NCBI GenBank assembly: GCA_963708025.1
Contig: CAVPSB010000015.1
Location: 288,001-352,000 of the forward strand
DNA length: 64,000 nt
Direction of reading: 5' to 3'
Source: an uncultured Candidatus Rokubacteria bacterium
GTDB lineage: Bacteria; Methylomirabilota; Methylomirabilia; Rokubacteriales; DASRDR01
In this document: positions 21,001 through 24,000 of the stretch, one piece after another
Layout: each line of letters opens with the position of its first letter
Numbering within the stretch: position 1 is the first letter of the stretch
Position numbers: made by a program

Positions 21001-24000
21001 ATCCTCCAGGTCGCCTCCTTCCGCCTGACTGGCCGAAGGATCTTCCGCATGGCGCCGCTTCACCACCACTTCGAGCTGGCCGGCTGGCCGGAGTCGAAGA
21101 TCGTGATCCGGTTCTGGATCCTCGCGCTGCTGATGGCGCTGCTGGCCGTCACGACGCTCAAGCTCCGATGACGACCATGCTCGAGCCGGCGTGGGTGGCG
21201 GTGGAGCGGGGGGCGGCCTGGCGGGCCGCCCTGGCCGGCCGCCGGGTCACGGTCGTGGGCTTGGCCCGCAGTGGCGTGGCGGCCTGCCGGCTGCTGCTGG
21301 GCTGTCGGGCGCGCGTCACCGCGACGGACGCCCAGCCGGCCGAGGCGCTGAGCGCGGCCGCCCGCGCGCTGCCGGCCGAGGGGGTGCGGCTCTACGCCGG
21401 CCAGCATCCGCCCGAGGCGTTCGGGGATGCCGAGCTGGTCGTGGTGAGCCCCGGCGTGCCGGCCGACCTGGCCGCCATCGCGTCGGCCCGGGAGCGCGGT
21501 GTCCCGGTGATCGGCGAGGTGGAGCTGGCGTACCGGACGATGACGGCCGACGTGATCGCGGTGACCGGCACCAACGGGAAGACGACGACGACGGCGCTGA
21601 TCGGCGCGCTCCTCGCCGAGGCCGGCCGGCCGCTGCTGGTCGGGGGGAACATCGGTCGCCCCCTCGCCACCGAGGCGCTCGACTTCCCGGCCGACGGCCT
21701 CGTCGTCGCCGAGGTGTCGAGCTTCCAGCTCGAGACCGTCGACACCTTCCGGCCGCGGGTGGCGGTGCTCTGCAACCTGACGCCCGACCACCTCGACCGG
21801 CACCGGAGCGTCGCGGCCTACGCGGAGGCGAAGGCGCGCATCTTCCTCCGCCAGACCGCCGAGGACTGGGCGGTCGTCAACGCCGACGACCCGGGGGCGG
21901 CGGCGCTCGCCGGGCGCGCCCCCGGACGCCTCGTGTGGTTCAGCCGGACCCGGGAGGTAGCCGAGGGGAGCTACGTCGGCGACGGCTGGGTGCGCCTGAG
22001 GCTTAGCGGCCGCGAGTCGGCCGTCTGCCCGGTCGAGGAGATCCTCCTGCGGGGCGCCCACAACCTGGAGAACGTTCTCGCCGCGACAGCGGCGGCGGCC
22101 TGGGCCGGCGTCCCACCGTCGCGGCTGCGGGCGGCCATCAAGGGCTTCCGAGCCGTCGCGCACCGGATCGAGTGGATCCGGGAGCTCGGGGGCGTGGCCT
22201 TCTACAACGACTCCAAGGGGACGAACGTCGACGCTACGCTCAAGGCGCTGGCGGCGTTCCGGGAGCCGGTCGTGCTGATCGCCGGCGGCCGGGACAAGGG
22301 CCAGGACTTCGCGCCGCTGGCGGCGGCCGCCGCCGGGCGGGTCAAGGCCGCCGTCCTGATCGGTGAGGGCCGGGCGACCCTGGGCCCCCCGCTCCGGCGG
22401 GTCACGGCGGTGCACGAGGCGGACTCGATGGCGGCCGCCGTCCGACAGGCGCTCGCGCTGGCCGTGCCCGGCGACGTGGTGCTCCTGTCCCCGGCCTGCG
22501 CCTCGTTCGACATGTTTCGCGACTACGAGCACCGCGGTGAGGTGTTCCGCGCAGAAGTCCTGAAGCTGGACCCGGCCGGGAGCCGGTAGCGGAGCAGGGA
22601 GGGGTCCGACCGTGCGACAGGAGGAAGAGTGCCGAGGAAGGTGAGTCCGGACTACTTCCTTTTCCTGGTCGTCGTCGCCCTGGCCGGCTTCGGCGTGGTC
22701 ATGGTCTACTCGGCGAGCGCGATCCTGGCCACCGACCGCTTCCGCGATCCCTACTTCTTCCTCAAGAAGCAGGGCTTCTGGGCGCTCCTGGGCCTCGGCG
22801 CCCTGTGGGCGACCATGGGGGTGGACTACCGCCGGTGGCGGGCCGTCGTGCTGCCGCTCCTGGGGCTGGCGGTCGTCCTGCTCCTGGCCGTGCTGGTCCC
22901 GGTGTTCGGGCAGGAGATCAACGGCACCCGCCGGTGGCTCCGCTGGGGGCCGGTCTCCTTCCAGCCGACCGAGCTGGCCAAGGTCGCCCTGGTCCTGTAC
23001 CTGGCCGACTTCCTCGCCCGCCGGCAGGCCCAGATCCGCAGCTTCTGGCGCGGCTTCCTGCCCCCGCTCCTGGTGACCGCCGTGATGGCGGGGCTGATCC
23101 TCAGGCAGCCGGACCTGGGCTCGAGCGTCGCCCTGGTCGCGGTGGTCCTGTCCATGCTCTACGTCGCCGGGGCCCGGCTCCGTCACATGGCCGTGGTGGC
23201 GCTGGCGGCGGTGCCGGCGATCGTGTTGCTGGTCGCCGGGGCCAGCTATCGCCTCCGGCGGGTCTTCGCCTTCATCGACCCCTGGGCCGACCCCCGCGGC
23301 GCCGGCTTCCAGATCATCCAGTCGTACCTCGCCCTCGGCGGGGGCGGGCTGACCGGCCGGGGCCTCGGGGAGTCCAAGCAGAAGCTCTTCTACCTGCCCG
23401 AGCCCCACACCGACTTCATCTTCGCGATCGTGGGCGAGGAGCTGGGCTTCGTCGGCGCGGTGGTGACCGTCAGCCTGTTCGGCCTGCTCCTGTGGCGCGG
23501 CATCCGGATCGCTCTCCGCGTGGCCGACCCGTTCGGAGCCCTGGCGGCGATCGGGATCACCGCGATGCTGACGACGCAGGCCCTGGTCAACCTGGGCGTC
23601 GTGGTCGGCCTGCTGCCGACCAAGGGGCTGCCCTTGCCCTTCGTCTCCTTCGGCGGCTCGTCGCTCGTGATGGCCATGGCCAGCGTGGGCCTCCTCCTCA
23701 ACATCTCGCTCCACCAGAGCTCCCTCTCCCGCCTCGGGGGAGCGGATCGGGATGCGAGGCCGGTCCGGCGCCAGGCCCCGACCCTCTCCCTGGAAGGGAG
23801 ACGGAGTGGAGTCGGAGCCGTCCCATGACCAGCCCGCGGTGGAAGGCGACCGATCCTCGCGCCGAGGCGACCGGACGAGCCGGGGTCGGAGCCGTCCCAT
23901 GACCAGCTCGCGGTGGAAGCGGTACCAGCAGGTTCACTTCGTGGGGATCGGCGGCGCCGGCATGAGCGGCATCGCCGAGGTGCTGCTCACCCTCGGCTAC

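What a model noticed while it worked through the whole genome (the two positions that open the first line are those of the whole stretch)
23811..23919. Duplicated stop/start junctions flanking repeat inserts
At eleven operon junctions, the 14-73 bp spanning the overlapping stop and start codons (ATGA, GTGA, TTGA, CTGA) is present twice, 32-241 nt apart, in several cases with repeat-family sequence between the copies. The first copy keeps the upstream stop. The second keeps the ribosome-binding site and start of the downstream gene. Here the first copy also opens a 25-codon upstream ORF that ends on the true start.
Evidence so far: Scan and table with coordinates: C12:62174-62409, C23:101112-101315, C18:97132-97298, C32:288897-289006, C34:31765-31884, C12:260552-260780, C49:68634-68732, C12:459196-459441, C7:41265-41426 and C32:265875-266153. 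Relatives have a single junction for C15:311811-311919 and C34:31765-31884. The same pattern was seen in G002 and G003 at other junctions.
(Added by a program. Inside this text positions count along the whole contig: contig position 288,001 is position 1 of the stretch shown here. "Call 12" and the like, gene names such as g00115 and contig names such as C1 are that model's own, and its searches are not shown. The text may have been shortened before it was handed on; [...] marks where a part breaks off. The agent that wrote the report below was given it as the finding of a first reader that could run no searches.)

Follow-up and report, generated by a model that had tools for sequence, protein, structure and literature searches.

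The report
Duplicated ftsW–murC junction with relay mini-ORF
A 74-base insertion has duplicated the overlapping stop/start signal between two cell-wall genes of an uncultured soil bacterium, leaving a 25-codon mini-gene that passes ribosomes from one gene to the next, much as the MIRU repeats of mycobacteria do.

Summary
Window 23808-23845 and 23882-23919 are a 38-nt direct repeat (36/38, spacing 74) spanning the ATGA where ftsW stops and murC starts. Copy 1 ends ftsW. Copy 2 starts murC. A 25-codon ORF runs from the first ATGA to the second. It is not an assembly artefact: contigs of a public run carry both the duplicated form and a form lacking exactly 74 nt. None of 19 relatives has this duplication. 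A second 74-nt case lies in the same window (rsmH/ftsL, 14589-14684).

Genome-wide, all 11 listed repeats exist. Junction-spanning repeats exceed chance (11 observed against 0.75 expected). In 12 of 14 such loci, open "relay" ORFs link the upstream stop to the downstream start.

The wider context is a set of MIRU-like intercistronic repeat families in this Candidatus Rokuibacteriota genome. They are co-oriented with the genes, begin on the upstream TGA and end on the downstream ATG, with NTGA on both sides.

My best reading: these are tolerated insertions or duplications at translationally coupled junctions, retained because stop, start and coupling survive.

The 36-39-nt filler at ftsW/murC matches nothing I searched, so its origin is unknown. 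The cluster of spacings at 71-74 nt is also unexplained. I rate this a new variant of a known kind, of moderate interest.

The parts
22629..23828 (+). ftsW (399 aa). Its last 37 residues lie beyond the FtsW profile and are partly encoded by a REP-like hairpin element.
   Evidence: One search gives the translation. TIGR02614 ftsW scores 427.6 bits over residues 8-362 of 399; relatives in genus g5 end about 35 codons earlier.
23776..23820 (+). Copy of a REP-like hairpin family (CCCTCTCCC-TGGAA-GGGAGAGGG), read in frame as the FtsW tail ...[11 protein letters not shown]. Its 3' flank reaches about 12 nt into repeat copy 1.
   Evidence: 36 BLAST rows including self, with coverage centred on this stretch; 35 copies genome-wide, this one inside ftsW within 60 nt of the stop.
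23808..23845 (+). Repeat copy 1. It holds the ftsW stop (TGA 23826-23828) and a now-redundant copy of the murC start (ATG 23825) with its first 7 codons.
23846..23881 (+). Filler of 36 nt (39 nt if the repeat is taken as 35 nt). It is unique in the genome and contains a small hairpin, CCTCG-CGC-CGAGG.
   Evidence: no other genomic match; not similar to the flanks within +/-1500 nt; only chance-level hits in 182 relatives.
23882..23919 (+). Repeat copy 2. It holds a redundant copy of the ftsW end and stop (TGA 23900-23902), a GGAG Shine-Dalgarno-like site, and the working murC start (ATG 23899).
   Evidence: the MurC N-terminus aligns with relatives from this ATG.
23825..23902 (+). Relay mini-ORF of 25 codons. 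Its ATG overlaps the ftsW TGA and its TGA overlaps the murC ATG.
   Evidence: locus 1: start at -1, 25 codons, stop at +1.
23899..25347 (+). murC (482 aa).
   Evidence: TIGR01082 murC scores 551.5 bits.
14589..14684 (+). Second case in the window, at the rsmH/ftsL junction. It is a 22-nt repeat (21/22; 14589-14610 and 14663-14684) with spacing 74 and a unique 52-nt filler. The relay ORF 14603-14668 (21 codons) ends on the duplicated rsmH TGA, 9 nt before the ftsL-like ATG at 14677.
   Evidence: RsmH scores 297.5 bits; FtsL-like. G003 and G002 have one junction here.

Best explanation
This is a real, recent 74-nt insertion-with-duplication at the translationally coupled ftsW/murC junction of a Candidatus Rokuibacteriota genome.

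Shown:
- The 38-nt junction is present twice around a unique 36-39-nt filler.
- ftsW ends in copy 1 and murC starts in copy 2.
- A 25-codon ORF bridges the two ATGA overlaps in the right phase.
- Related strains in nature carry forms with and without the 74 nt.
- The same genome holds many junction inserts with the same bridging architecture. These include repeat families that lie exactly between NTGA junctions, in the orientation of the genes.

Inferred:
- Ribosomes that terminate on ftsW re-initiate on the mini-ORF, terminate on its TGA and re-initiate on murC, which also keeps a GGAG site. The insert therefore costs little.
- Junction inserts survive selection only when they restore an intact stop, an intact start and a relay ORF. 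That filter would explain why duplications are seen at junctions and why the relay phase is so common.
- The peptide itself has no function.

Functionally this is the MIRU architecture: an intercistronic unit whose ORF overlaps the neighbours' stop and start.

The event that made this particular unit is not identified. My working guess is a local slippage or break-repair event with filler DNA. It came after the REP-like element entered the ftsW tail, because both copies carry that element's 3' flank.
For: - Repeat and ORF anatomy.
- Not an artefact. In one search, run X4 has one contig joining 23810 to 23885 (skips 74; depth 19.9; 66 nt on the shorter side). It also has a 104-nt contig covering 23811-23912 with 8 mismatches and no gap (depth 4.6). 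Run X1 covers the filler bins.
- Derived state. None of 19 relatives has the duplication.
- Second 74-nt case, at rsmH/ftsL.
- Excess over chance. Of 3223 same-strand pairs with gaps of 20-450 nt, 11 score >=12 against 0.75 expected, and 17 score >=10 against 1.75 expected.
- Relay ORFs. 12 of 14 junction-duplication loci have a single relay ORF or a chain of them. C15:302589 comes, because its start at +11 lay outside the window used. The misses are C34:31765, which is an in-frame extension instead, and C7:41265. The background is 322 of 2233 pairs (14%) in real spacers and 216 of 2233 (10%) after shuffling the spacers.
- Phase. Among pairs that have a start over the stop and a stop over the start, 149 of 317 are in relay phase against 781 of 2199 in the rest (p=0.0004).
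- Family alpha. For the 3' motif, 25 of 25 non-genic copies are co-oriented with the downstream gene, and in 18 the terminal ATG is the called start. All 18 read NTGA, against a baseline of 37% A at position +4. For the 5' motif, 18 of 18 copies are co-oriented, in 11 the TGA is the called stop, and all 11 are preceded by A or G. The length variants of 118 and 160 nt differ by 42 nt, a multiple of three.
- MIRU description. The passages I read say that the MIRU ORF is coupled at -4 nt (PMC12548453, section 11). They also report tetranucleotide direct repeats at filled sites and ORF ends overlapping the adjacent genes (PMC3184786, section 9).
Against: - No expression or ribosome data exist for this locus, so coupling through the mini-ORF is inferred.
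- murC keeps its own GGAG site, so coupling may not matter here.
- The filler belongs to no repeat family, so this unit is not itself a member of a MIRU-like family.
- The relay statistics rest on my own crude gene caller (7480 calls, 80.6% coding), on definitions chosen after seeing the data, and on loci that share element families and so are not independent.
- With the strictest definition (the same geometry from duplicated start to duplicated stop), only 9 of 14 loci pass. My hand calculation gives p about 0.017 against a chance rate of 1/3.
- The clustering of spacings (71, 71, 74, 74 nt) is not predicted by a selection filter alone.
- No enzyme that could move the families was found: neither a Y1 transposase nor Cas1.
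Confidence: 0.6

Rival explanations
1. It is a neutral scar. A one-off slippage or break-repair event duplicated the junction and trapped filler DNA. The mini-ORF and its phase are incidental, and no selection for coupling is involved.
For: - The filler is unique and unlike its flanks.
- murC has its own GGAG site.
- Any duplication spanning a junction leaves stop and start intact automatically.
- Other loci are demonstrable tandem duplications (C12:181774; C18:341461).
- Forms with and without the 74 nt coexist, as expected for a nearly neutral variant.
Against: - All four short unique-filler units (74, 74, 71 and 71 nt) and the 92-nt VNTR are in relay phase.
- 12 of 14 loci keep a relay ORF or chain, against a 10-14% background.
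- There is a genome-wide phase excess.
Confidence: 0.22
2. It is the long, variable target-site duplication left by a mobile element. An element inserted at the ATGA with staggered cuts 22-73 nt apart, and here the filler is an orphan or decayed element.
For: - Repeat-family elements lie between the copies at 7 or more of the listed loci.
- G001 carries repeat elements at this same ftsW/murC junction.
- The families are tied to NTGA junctions.
Against: - Only 15 repeat pairs (about 10 loci) of the 1549 examined are a unique repeat flanking a family insert, although the families cover 4.1% of the genome.
- For family alpha the left and right tetranucleotides can differ (GTGA on the left, ATGA on the right at C24:32353 and C44:47082). 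This suggests the element brings its own ATG rather than duplicating the target.
- Several loci are [junction+element] units repeated in tandem with different element variants.
- The filler here matches no family.
Confidence: 0.1
3. It is an ectopic CRISPR adaptation. Cas1-Cas2 integrated a spacer-sized fragment off-target and duplicated a repeat-sized stretch, giving repeat-spacer-repeat units of about 72 nt.
For: - The geometry fits at ftsW/murC (35-38-nt repeat with a 36-39-nt unique filler) and at C32:288897 (39 + 32 nt).
- The four short units total 71-74 nt.
- Cas1 occurs in 4 of 41 genomes of the group, among them G001 and G003 of the same family.
Against: - No Cas1 in G000, which is 99.67% complete.
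- I saw no CRISPR array of that period among local repeats.
- The duplicated length is not constant (22, 28, 35-38 and 39 nt), and the fillers reach 43 and 52 nt.
- The phase bias is not predicted by this mechanism.
Confidence: 0.04
4. It is an assembly or binning artefact in a mixed metagenome assembly.
For: - Estimated contamination is 8.18%.
- Near-duplicate contigs exist (C17 and C41).
- Some tandem units differ by homopolymer-type indels.
Against: - The two copies differ by substitutions and enclose unique sequence.
- Contigs of public runs that hold at most 36% of the sampled words carry the duplicated form without gaps, and separately a form lacking exactly 74 nt.
Confidence: 0.03

Closest known systems
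Mycobacterial interspersed repetitive units (MIRUs; Supply et al. 1997, known to me only through passages of PMC12548453 and PMC3184786)
   Same: - Short units lie between genes of one operon, in the orientation of the genes.
- An ORF in the unit overlaps the upstream stop and the downstream start (-4 nt spacing).
- Tetranucleotide repeats sit at both sides of filled sites.
- Units occur in tandem with variable copy number.
- No transposase is known.

Family alpha here shows all of these. The ftsW/murC unit shows the ORF architecture, and a form without the extra unit occurs in another sample.
   Different: - The phylum is different (Candidatus Rokuibacteriota).
- I did not compare sequences with MIRUs.
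- The ftsW/murC filler is unique, not a family member.
- The duplicated junction is 38 nt rather than 4 nt.
REP/BIME-type extragenic palindromes and MITEs
   Same: They are abundant, G+C-rich hairpin modules in intergenic DNA, with nested insertions of small hairpins (GGCCGAAGGCC modules).
   Different: - The families here are strongly polar with respect to the genes: beta 3' motif 255 co-oriented against 81 opposite, alpha 25 of 25.
- They are anchored on stop and start codons and are translated in phase.
- No Y1/RAYT transposase was found.
- There is no fixed-length target duplication.
Microhomology-mediated or unequal-crossover tandem duplications (VNTR formation)
   Same: C12:181774 is a 92-nt unit repeated about 7 times, whose body is a 78%-identical copy of the upstream gene's 3' end. 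C18:341461 likewise holds a diverged copy of the upstream gene's 3' end. Both spacer forms of ftsW/murC occur in nature.
   Different: At ftsW/murC only 38 of the 74 nt are repeated, and the rest has no detectable source.

Membership tests
MIRU-like intercistronic relay unit (architecture) | The unit's ORF starts on the upstream gene's stop and ends on the downstream gene's start | tested here: met
   ORF 23825-23902, with ATGA at both ends.
MIRU-like intercistronic relay unit (architecture) | A direct repeat of the stop/start tetranucleotide on both sides of the insert | tested here: met
   ATGA lies within a 38-nt repeat here. In family alpha, 18 of 18 right ends and 11 of 11 left ends read NTGA.
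MIRU-like intercistronic relay unit (architecture) | The unit belongs to a dispersed family of similar sequences | tested here: not met
   The filler is unique in the genome, with a repeat-family fraction of 0.00. The feature is met for families alpha and beta elsewhere in the genome.
MIRU-like intercistronic relay unit (architecture) | Same orientation as the flanking genes | tested here: met
   Alpha: 25 of 25 and 18 of 18 copies. Beta: 255 co-oriented against 81 opposite, and 47 against 7. For a unique unit, orientation is defined only by its ORF.
MIRU-like intercistronic relay unit (architecture) | Copy-number variation between strains, or tandem arrays | tested here: met
   Contigs with and without the 74 nt occur in run X4. 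A 92-nt array of about 7 units lies at C12:181774.
Mycobacterial MIRU (sequence family) | Sequence similarity to MIRU classes I-III | not tested
Transposon-type target-site duplication (MITE/IS) | A fixed-length duplication flanking most copies of the element family | tested here: not met
   Lengths range from 14 to 73 nt. Only 15 pairs of the 1549 examined are a unique repeat flanking a family insert.
IS200/IS605- or REP/RAYT-mobilised elements | A Y1 (HUH) transposase in the genome | tested here: not met
   PF01797 has no match in G000; the control genomes matched.
Ectopic CRISPR spacer integration | A Cas1 integrase in the genome, and a constant duplicated length | tested here: not met
   PF01867 has no match in G000. 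The duplicated lengths are 22, 28, 35-38 and 39 nt.
Plain tandem duplication | The whole unit is a copy of adjacent sequence | tested here: not met
   Filler against flanks: p=0.51 and 0.64 for the adjacent sequence, and p>=0.2 within +/-1500 nt on either strand. The feature is met at C12:181774 and C18:341461.

The most novel reading that the evidence does not exclude
Rokubacteria may carry an unrecognised class of 'operon-safe' insertions. In this reading, a mechanism with no known transposase targets overlapping stop/start tetranucleotides (NTGA), copies a variable length of the junction (4 to 73 nt), and deposits either family elements or about 72-nt units with novel filler. Each product is built, or filtered, so that a relay ORF keeps translational coupling. 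The ftsW/murC and rsmH/ftsL units would be fresh products of that mechanism, and the shared 71-74-nt size would be its ruler.
Probability: 0.2. Interest if true: 0.75.

Novelty: new variant of a known kind. Interest (0 to 1): 0.5.

Why it matters
Overlapping stop/start junctions are the commonest way bacteria couple the translation of neighbouring genes, and they should be intolerant of insertions.

This genome shows how they can still grow spacers. The junction is duplicated, and a small relay ORF carries ribosomes across. One genome holds unique fillers, tandem arrays and whole repeat families that all follow the same rule, in an uncultured phylum far from the mycobacteria where MIRUs were described.

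If the relay reading is right, it gives three things:
- a natural data set for what termination-reinitiation tolerates;
- an explanation for part of the origin of intergenic spacers in operons;
- strain-typing markers (74-nt and 92-nt units) for Rokubacteria in soil metagenomes.

It also warns annotators that start codons at such junctions come in decoy copies.

Tried and rejected
- **Ectopic CRISPR integration.** No Cas1 in G000. Cas1 is present in 4 of 41 genomes of the group. No array with a 71-74-nt period turned up: the one candidate (C17:4982 / C41:4445, spacing 73) is a two-copy repeat in a divergent promoter region on two near-duplicate contigs.
- **IS200/IS605- or RAYT-type mobilisation.** No Y1 transposase.
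- **Known RNA families.** None in the window at gathering scores. In 12 junction loci there was one sub-threshold hit, P10, at 23.8 bits against a gathering score of 37.
- **Source of the filler.** There is no other match in the genome and no similarity to the flanks. The 182 relatives of the order gave only hits of about 18-47 nt, with best per-genome E-value 3e-5. I had noticed a resemblance between the filler and G001's repeat element by eye, but did not test it, so I make no claim from it.
- **Other strains in JGI metagenome contigs.** The two-copy pattern found nothing. The 19-nt junction word found 17 contigs. None matched the 701-nt query around the junction beyond 22-28 nt (4 matched that much, 13 not at all), so I take them as chance.
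- **Empty site for an alpha element.** The orthologous junction in G001 is filled by a different hairpin element, so I did not obtain an empty site.
- **A BLAST census of all repeats.** It timed out. I replaced it with 17-mer counts; 14-mers were too noisy.
- **Public runs.** No run held more than 36% of the sampled words, so the source reads were not examined.
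Full report
**What is at the coordinates.** The window is G000:C15:288001-352000 of an 8.17-Mb, 71% G+C assembly in 49 contigs. Its MurC is closest to Candidatus Rokuibacteriota MAGs, at 68-70% identity. The repeat finder reports two copies of 38 nt at 23808-23845 and 23882-23919, 95% identical, with spacing 74.

The ftsW ORF 22629-23828 ends with TGA at 23826-23828, and the ATG at 23825 overlaps it (ATGA). The same ATGA recurs at 23899-23902. From 23899 the frame gives a 482-aa MurC (TIGR01082, 551.5 bits). The upstream ORF is FtsW (TIGR02614, 427.6 bits, residues 8-362 of 399). The ORF from the first ATG reads [25 protein letters not shown] and stops on the TGA that overlaps the murC ATG. 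It begins like MurC and ends like FtsW, because both ends are repeat copies.

**Relatives and reality.** I read the junction in 19 relatives (L002-L020). Eighteen have one junction. In genus g5 ftsW ends about 35 codons earlier, and only about 42 nt separate the conserved parts. The nineteenth, G001, has repeat elements inserted at this same junction with its own stop motif present three times.

The extra FtsW tail in G000 contains a copy of a REP-like hairpin family (35 copies genome-wide). The 3' flank of that element runs about 12 nt into repeat copy 1 and is present in copy 2 as well. The duplication therefore came after that element (inference).

No public run held more than 36% of the sampled words. 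When four runs were laid, run X4 gave two informative contigs: one joins 23810 to 23885 (skips 74; depth 19.9), and a 104-nt contig covers 23811-23912 with 8 mismatches and no gap (depth 4.6). Run X1 also covers the filler. The structure therefore exists outside this assembly, in a diverged strain, beside a form without it. An assembly artefact is unlikely.

**A second case in the window.** At the rsmH/ftsL junction a 22-nt stretch (21/22) holding the rsmH TGA, a GGAGAG site and the ftsL-like ATG occurs twice, again 74 nt apart (14589-14610 and 14663-14684). A 21-codon ORF runs from the first ATG to the duplicated TGA. G003 and G002 have one junction there.

**My own genome-wide scan.**
- With an 11-nt seed I found 1923 local direct repeats of >=14 nt within 400 nt, of which 1625 are non-overlapping.
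- A crude codon-usage gene caller gave 7480 genes covering 80.6% of the genome. Fifty-one repeats contain a called gene boundary.
- I then ran an anchored scan of 3223 same-strand neighbours with gaps of 20-450 nt. It asked whether the context of the upstream stop recurs at the downstream start. It gave 11 pairs at score >=12 against 0.75 expected from random pairings, and 17 at >=10 against 1.75 expected.
- The inserts of five listed loci gave 105-314 BLAST hits in the genome and two gave 17-21. The inserts of C7:41265 and of C18:341461 (my own addition, not listed) are unique. The fillers of C15:311811 and C32:288897 are unique, and all four short fillers have a repeat-family fraction of 0.00.

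**The listed loci one by one.**
- Stop in copy 1 and working start in copy 2: C15:311811, C23:101112, C32:288897, C34:31765, C49:68634, C7:41265 (dppB/dppC-like by ORF reading) and C32:265875.
- C12:62174, C12:260552 and C12:459196 are arrays of [junction + element] units with different element variants. The real downstream start sits at a third, partial copy or after the second element.
- In C18:97132 the repeat is the last eight codons of the upstream gene, and the stop and start contexts have diverged.

**Relay ORFs.** I followed ORFs from a start codon at or near each stop. A single relay ORF, or a chain of them, reaches the downstream start in 12 of 14 loci (the 11 listed plus C15:302589, C18:341461 and the C12:181774 array).
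- C15:302589 comes, because its start lies +11 from the stop, outside the window used.
- The misses are C34:31765, where the 99-nt spacing makes copy 1 an in-frame N-terminal extension instead, and C7:41265.

The same search finds chains in 322 of 2233 ordinary same-strand pairs with gaps of 50-300 nt (14%), and in 216 of 2233 (10%) after shuffling the spacers.

A fairer null for duplicated junctions is the one-in-three chance of the right phase. With the strictest definition, 9 of 14 loci pass (p about 0.017, my hand calculation). All four short unique-filler units (74, 74, 71 and 71 nt) and the 92-nt array are in phase.

Independently, I looked at pairs with gaps of 15-200 nt that have both a start over the stop and a stop over the start. 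Of these, 149 of 317 are in relay phase, against 781 of 2199 for the other pairs (p=0.0004), and 130 of the 149 relay ORFs are open.

These tests depend on my gene calls and on definitions chosen after seeing the data. Loci that share element families are not independent.

**The wider context: MIRU-like families.** The relay list showed the same peptides again and again. That led to family alpha (118 or 160 nt; TGAGACACCCTGTGTC...GGACCCGAATG).
- Its 3' motif has 29 copies. Four lie inside gene calls. The other 25 are all co-oriented with the downstream gene, and in 18 the terminal ATG is the called start.
- Its 5' motif has 18 copies, all co-oriented with the upstream gene. In 11 the TGA is the called stop.
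- All 18 starts read NTGA (17 ATGA, 1 GTGA), against 37% A at position +4 genome-wide. All 11 stops are preceded by A or G.
- The left and right tetranucleotides can differ (GTGA and ATGA), so the element may carry its own ATG.
- By eye it has hairpins next to both ends. The two length classes differ by 42 nt, made of nested GGCCGAAGGCC hairpin modules.

Family beta has 375 copies of its 3' motif GGGCGGGAGGTCCCGAA. Of these, 255 are co-oriented with the downstream gene, 81 are opposite and 39 lie inside gene calls. Its 5' motif lies 4 nt after the upstream stop in 30 of 47 co-oriented copies.

Passages of two reviews describe the same features for mycobacterial MIRUs. One says that an ORF in the unit is coupled to the gene at -4 nt (PMC12548453, section 11). 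The other reports tetranucleotide direct repeats at filled sites and ORF ends overlapping the adjacent genes (PMC3184786, section 9). Both cite Supply et al. 1997, which I did not read.

A full-text search for Rokubacteria with 'repeat' and 'intergenic' found 3 papers, and neither of the two listed is on this subject. That one search is my only basis for saying the families appear undescribed.

**How the long duplications arise.**
- Long unique repeats around family inserts are rare: 15 pairs, about 10 loci, of 1549 examined, although the families cover 4.1% of the genome. A long target duplication is therefore not the families' normal footprint.
- Some loci are plain tandem duplications that have aged. 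The C12:181774 array has about 7 units, five of them of 92 nt, each starting on GTGA. The four full middle units each encode a 31-codon relay ORF. The body of the unit is a 78%-identical copy of the upstream gene's 3' coding region. C18:341461 holds a 78%-identical copy of the upstream gene's end.
- For ftsW/murC and the other three short units, the filler is unlike anything within +/-1500 nt, elsewhere in the genome, or (for ftsW/murC) in 182 relatives. The repeat copies are 86-97% identical while the filler has no detectable source. The filler therefore entered as new sequence and is not a decayed duplicate.
- The mechanism, and the coincidence of 71, 71, 74 and 74 nt, remain unexplained. 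I considered off-target CRISPR integration, which would give this geometry. I found no Cas1 in G000, no array, and no constant repeat length.

**Verdict.** The finding is real and the anatomy was described correctly. It is best read as one fresh, strain-variable example of a general rule in this genome. The rule is that inserts at coupled operon junctions persist when they restore stop, start and a relay ORF. That is the architecture known from MIRUs, here in another phylum and with an unusually long junction duplication and a unique filler. Function through coupling is inferred, not shown.

The tallies include genomes flagged unpublished (G038; also G045 and G176). No statement here rests on them specifically.

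Noticed in passing
G000:C12:181774-182396 (outside the window; locus L115): A tandem array of about 7 units, five of them of 92 nt, lies between a gene ending ...APTASRS* and a gene starting MRRIGVDVGG. Each unit starts on GTGA, and the four full middle units each encode a 31-codon relay ORF. The body of the unit is a 78%-identical copy of the upstream gene's 3' end. The first units differ by homopolymer-type indels that look like sequencing errors.
   Followed up: partly
G000 genome-wide, e.g. C18:331005-331122, C19:16467-16584, C22:249709-249868: Repeat family 'alpha' (118 or 160 nt) sits exactly between a TGA stop and an ATG start of co-oriented genes, with NTGA on both sides. It encodes a conserved relay peptide (MRHPVSTLSFRRPRT...GGGGPQ).
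   Followed up: partly
G000 genome-wide (375 copies of the 3' motif GGGCGGGAGGTCCCGAA): Repeat family 'beta' is G-rich, starts at or just after the upstream stop, and ends in a GGGAGG site a few bases before the downstream start. 255 copies are co-oriented with the downstream gene and 81 are opposite.
   Followed up: partly
window 23721-23828: FtsW carries a 37-residue C-terminal extension that genus g5 relatives lack. Part of it is a REP-like hairpin element read in frame ([11 protein letters not shown]). The same element is read as part of a relay ORF at C12:21970-22036.
   Followed up: partly
L014 (G001:C103... ftsW/murC junction, locus positions about 970-1480): A relative has repeat elements in tandem at the same ftsW/murC junction, with the stop motif GCGTGAGACA present three times. 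Part of the stretch is masked (N).
   Followed up: partly
G000:C17:4700-5500 and C41:4100-4900: Two contigs carry nearly the same sequence in opposite orientation, including a 26-nt repeat 73 nt apart in a divergent promoter region. This fits two strains in one bin (contamination estimate 8.18%).
   Followed up: no
window 26285-26392: CGGCCTTCGGCC hairpin modules repeat 70 nt apart, in the gap between the ORF ending at 26215 and the next called gene (window 26977). It looks like a repeat-family element on the minus strand.
   Followed up: no
G000: C15:311811, C15:302589, C32:288897, C49:68634: The four junction duplications with unique filler have spacings of 74, 74, 71 and 71 nt, although their repeat lengths (22-39 nt) and filler lengths (32-52 nt) differ. 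I have no explanation.
   Followed up: partly
G000: F2 family, e.g. C12:62244, C12:459240, C18:618316/618408: A two-hairpin element (CCCCCAGGTGGGGG... GGGGGGAGT-loop-ACTCCCCCC) occurs in a short form (about 45 nt) and in long forms (about 100-125 nt) that have an extra module in the loop. Short and long forms often sit in tandem behind copies of the same flank.
   Followed up: partly
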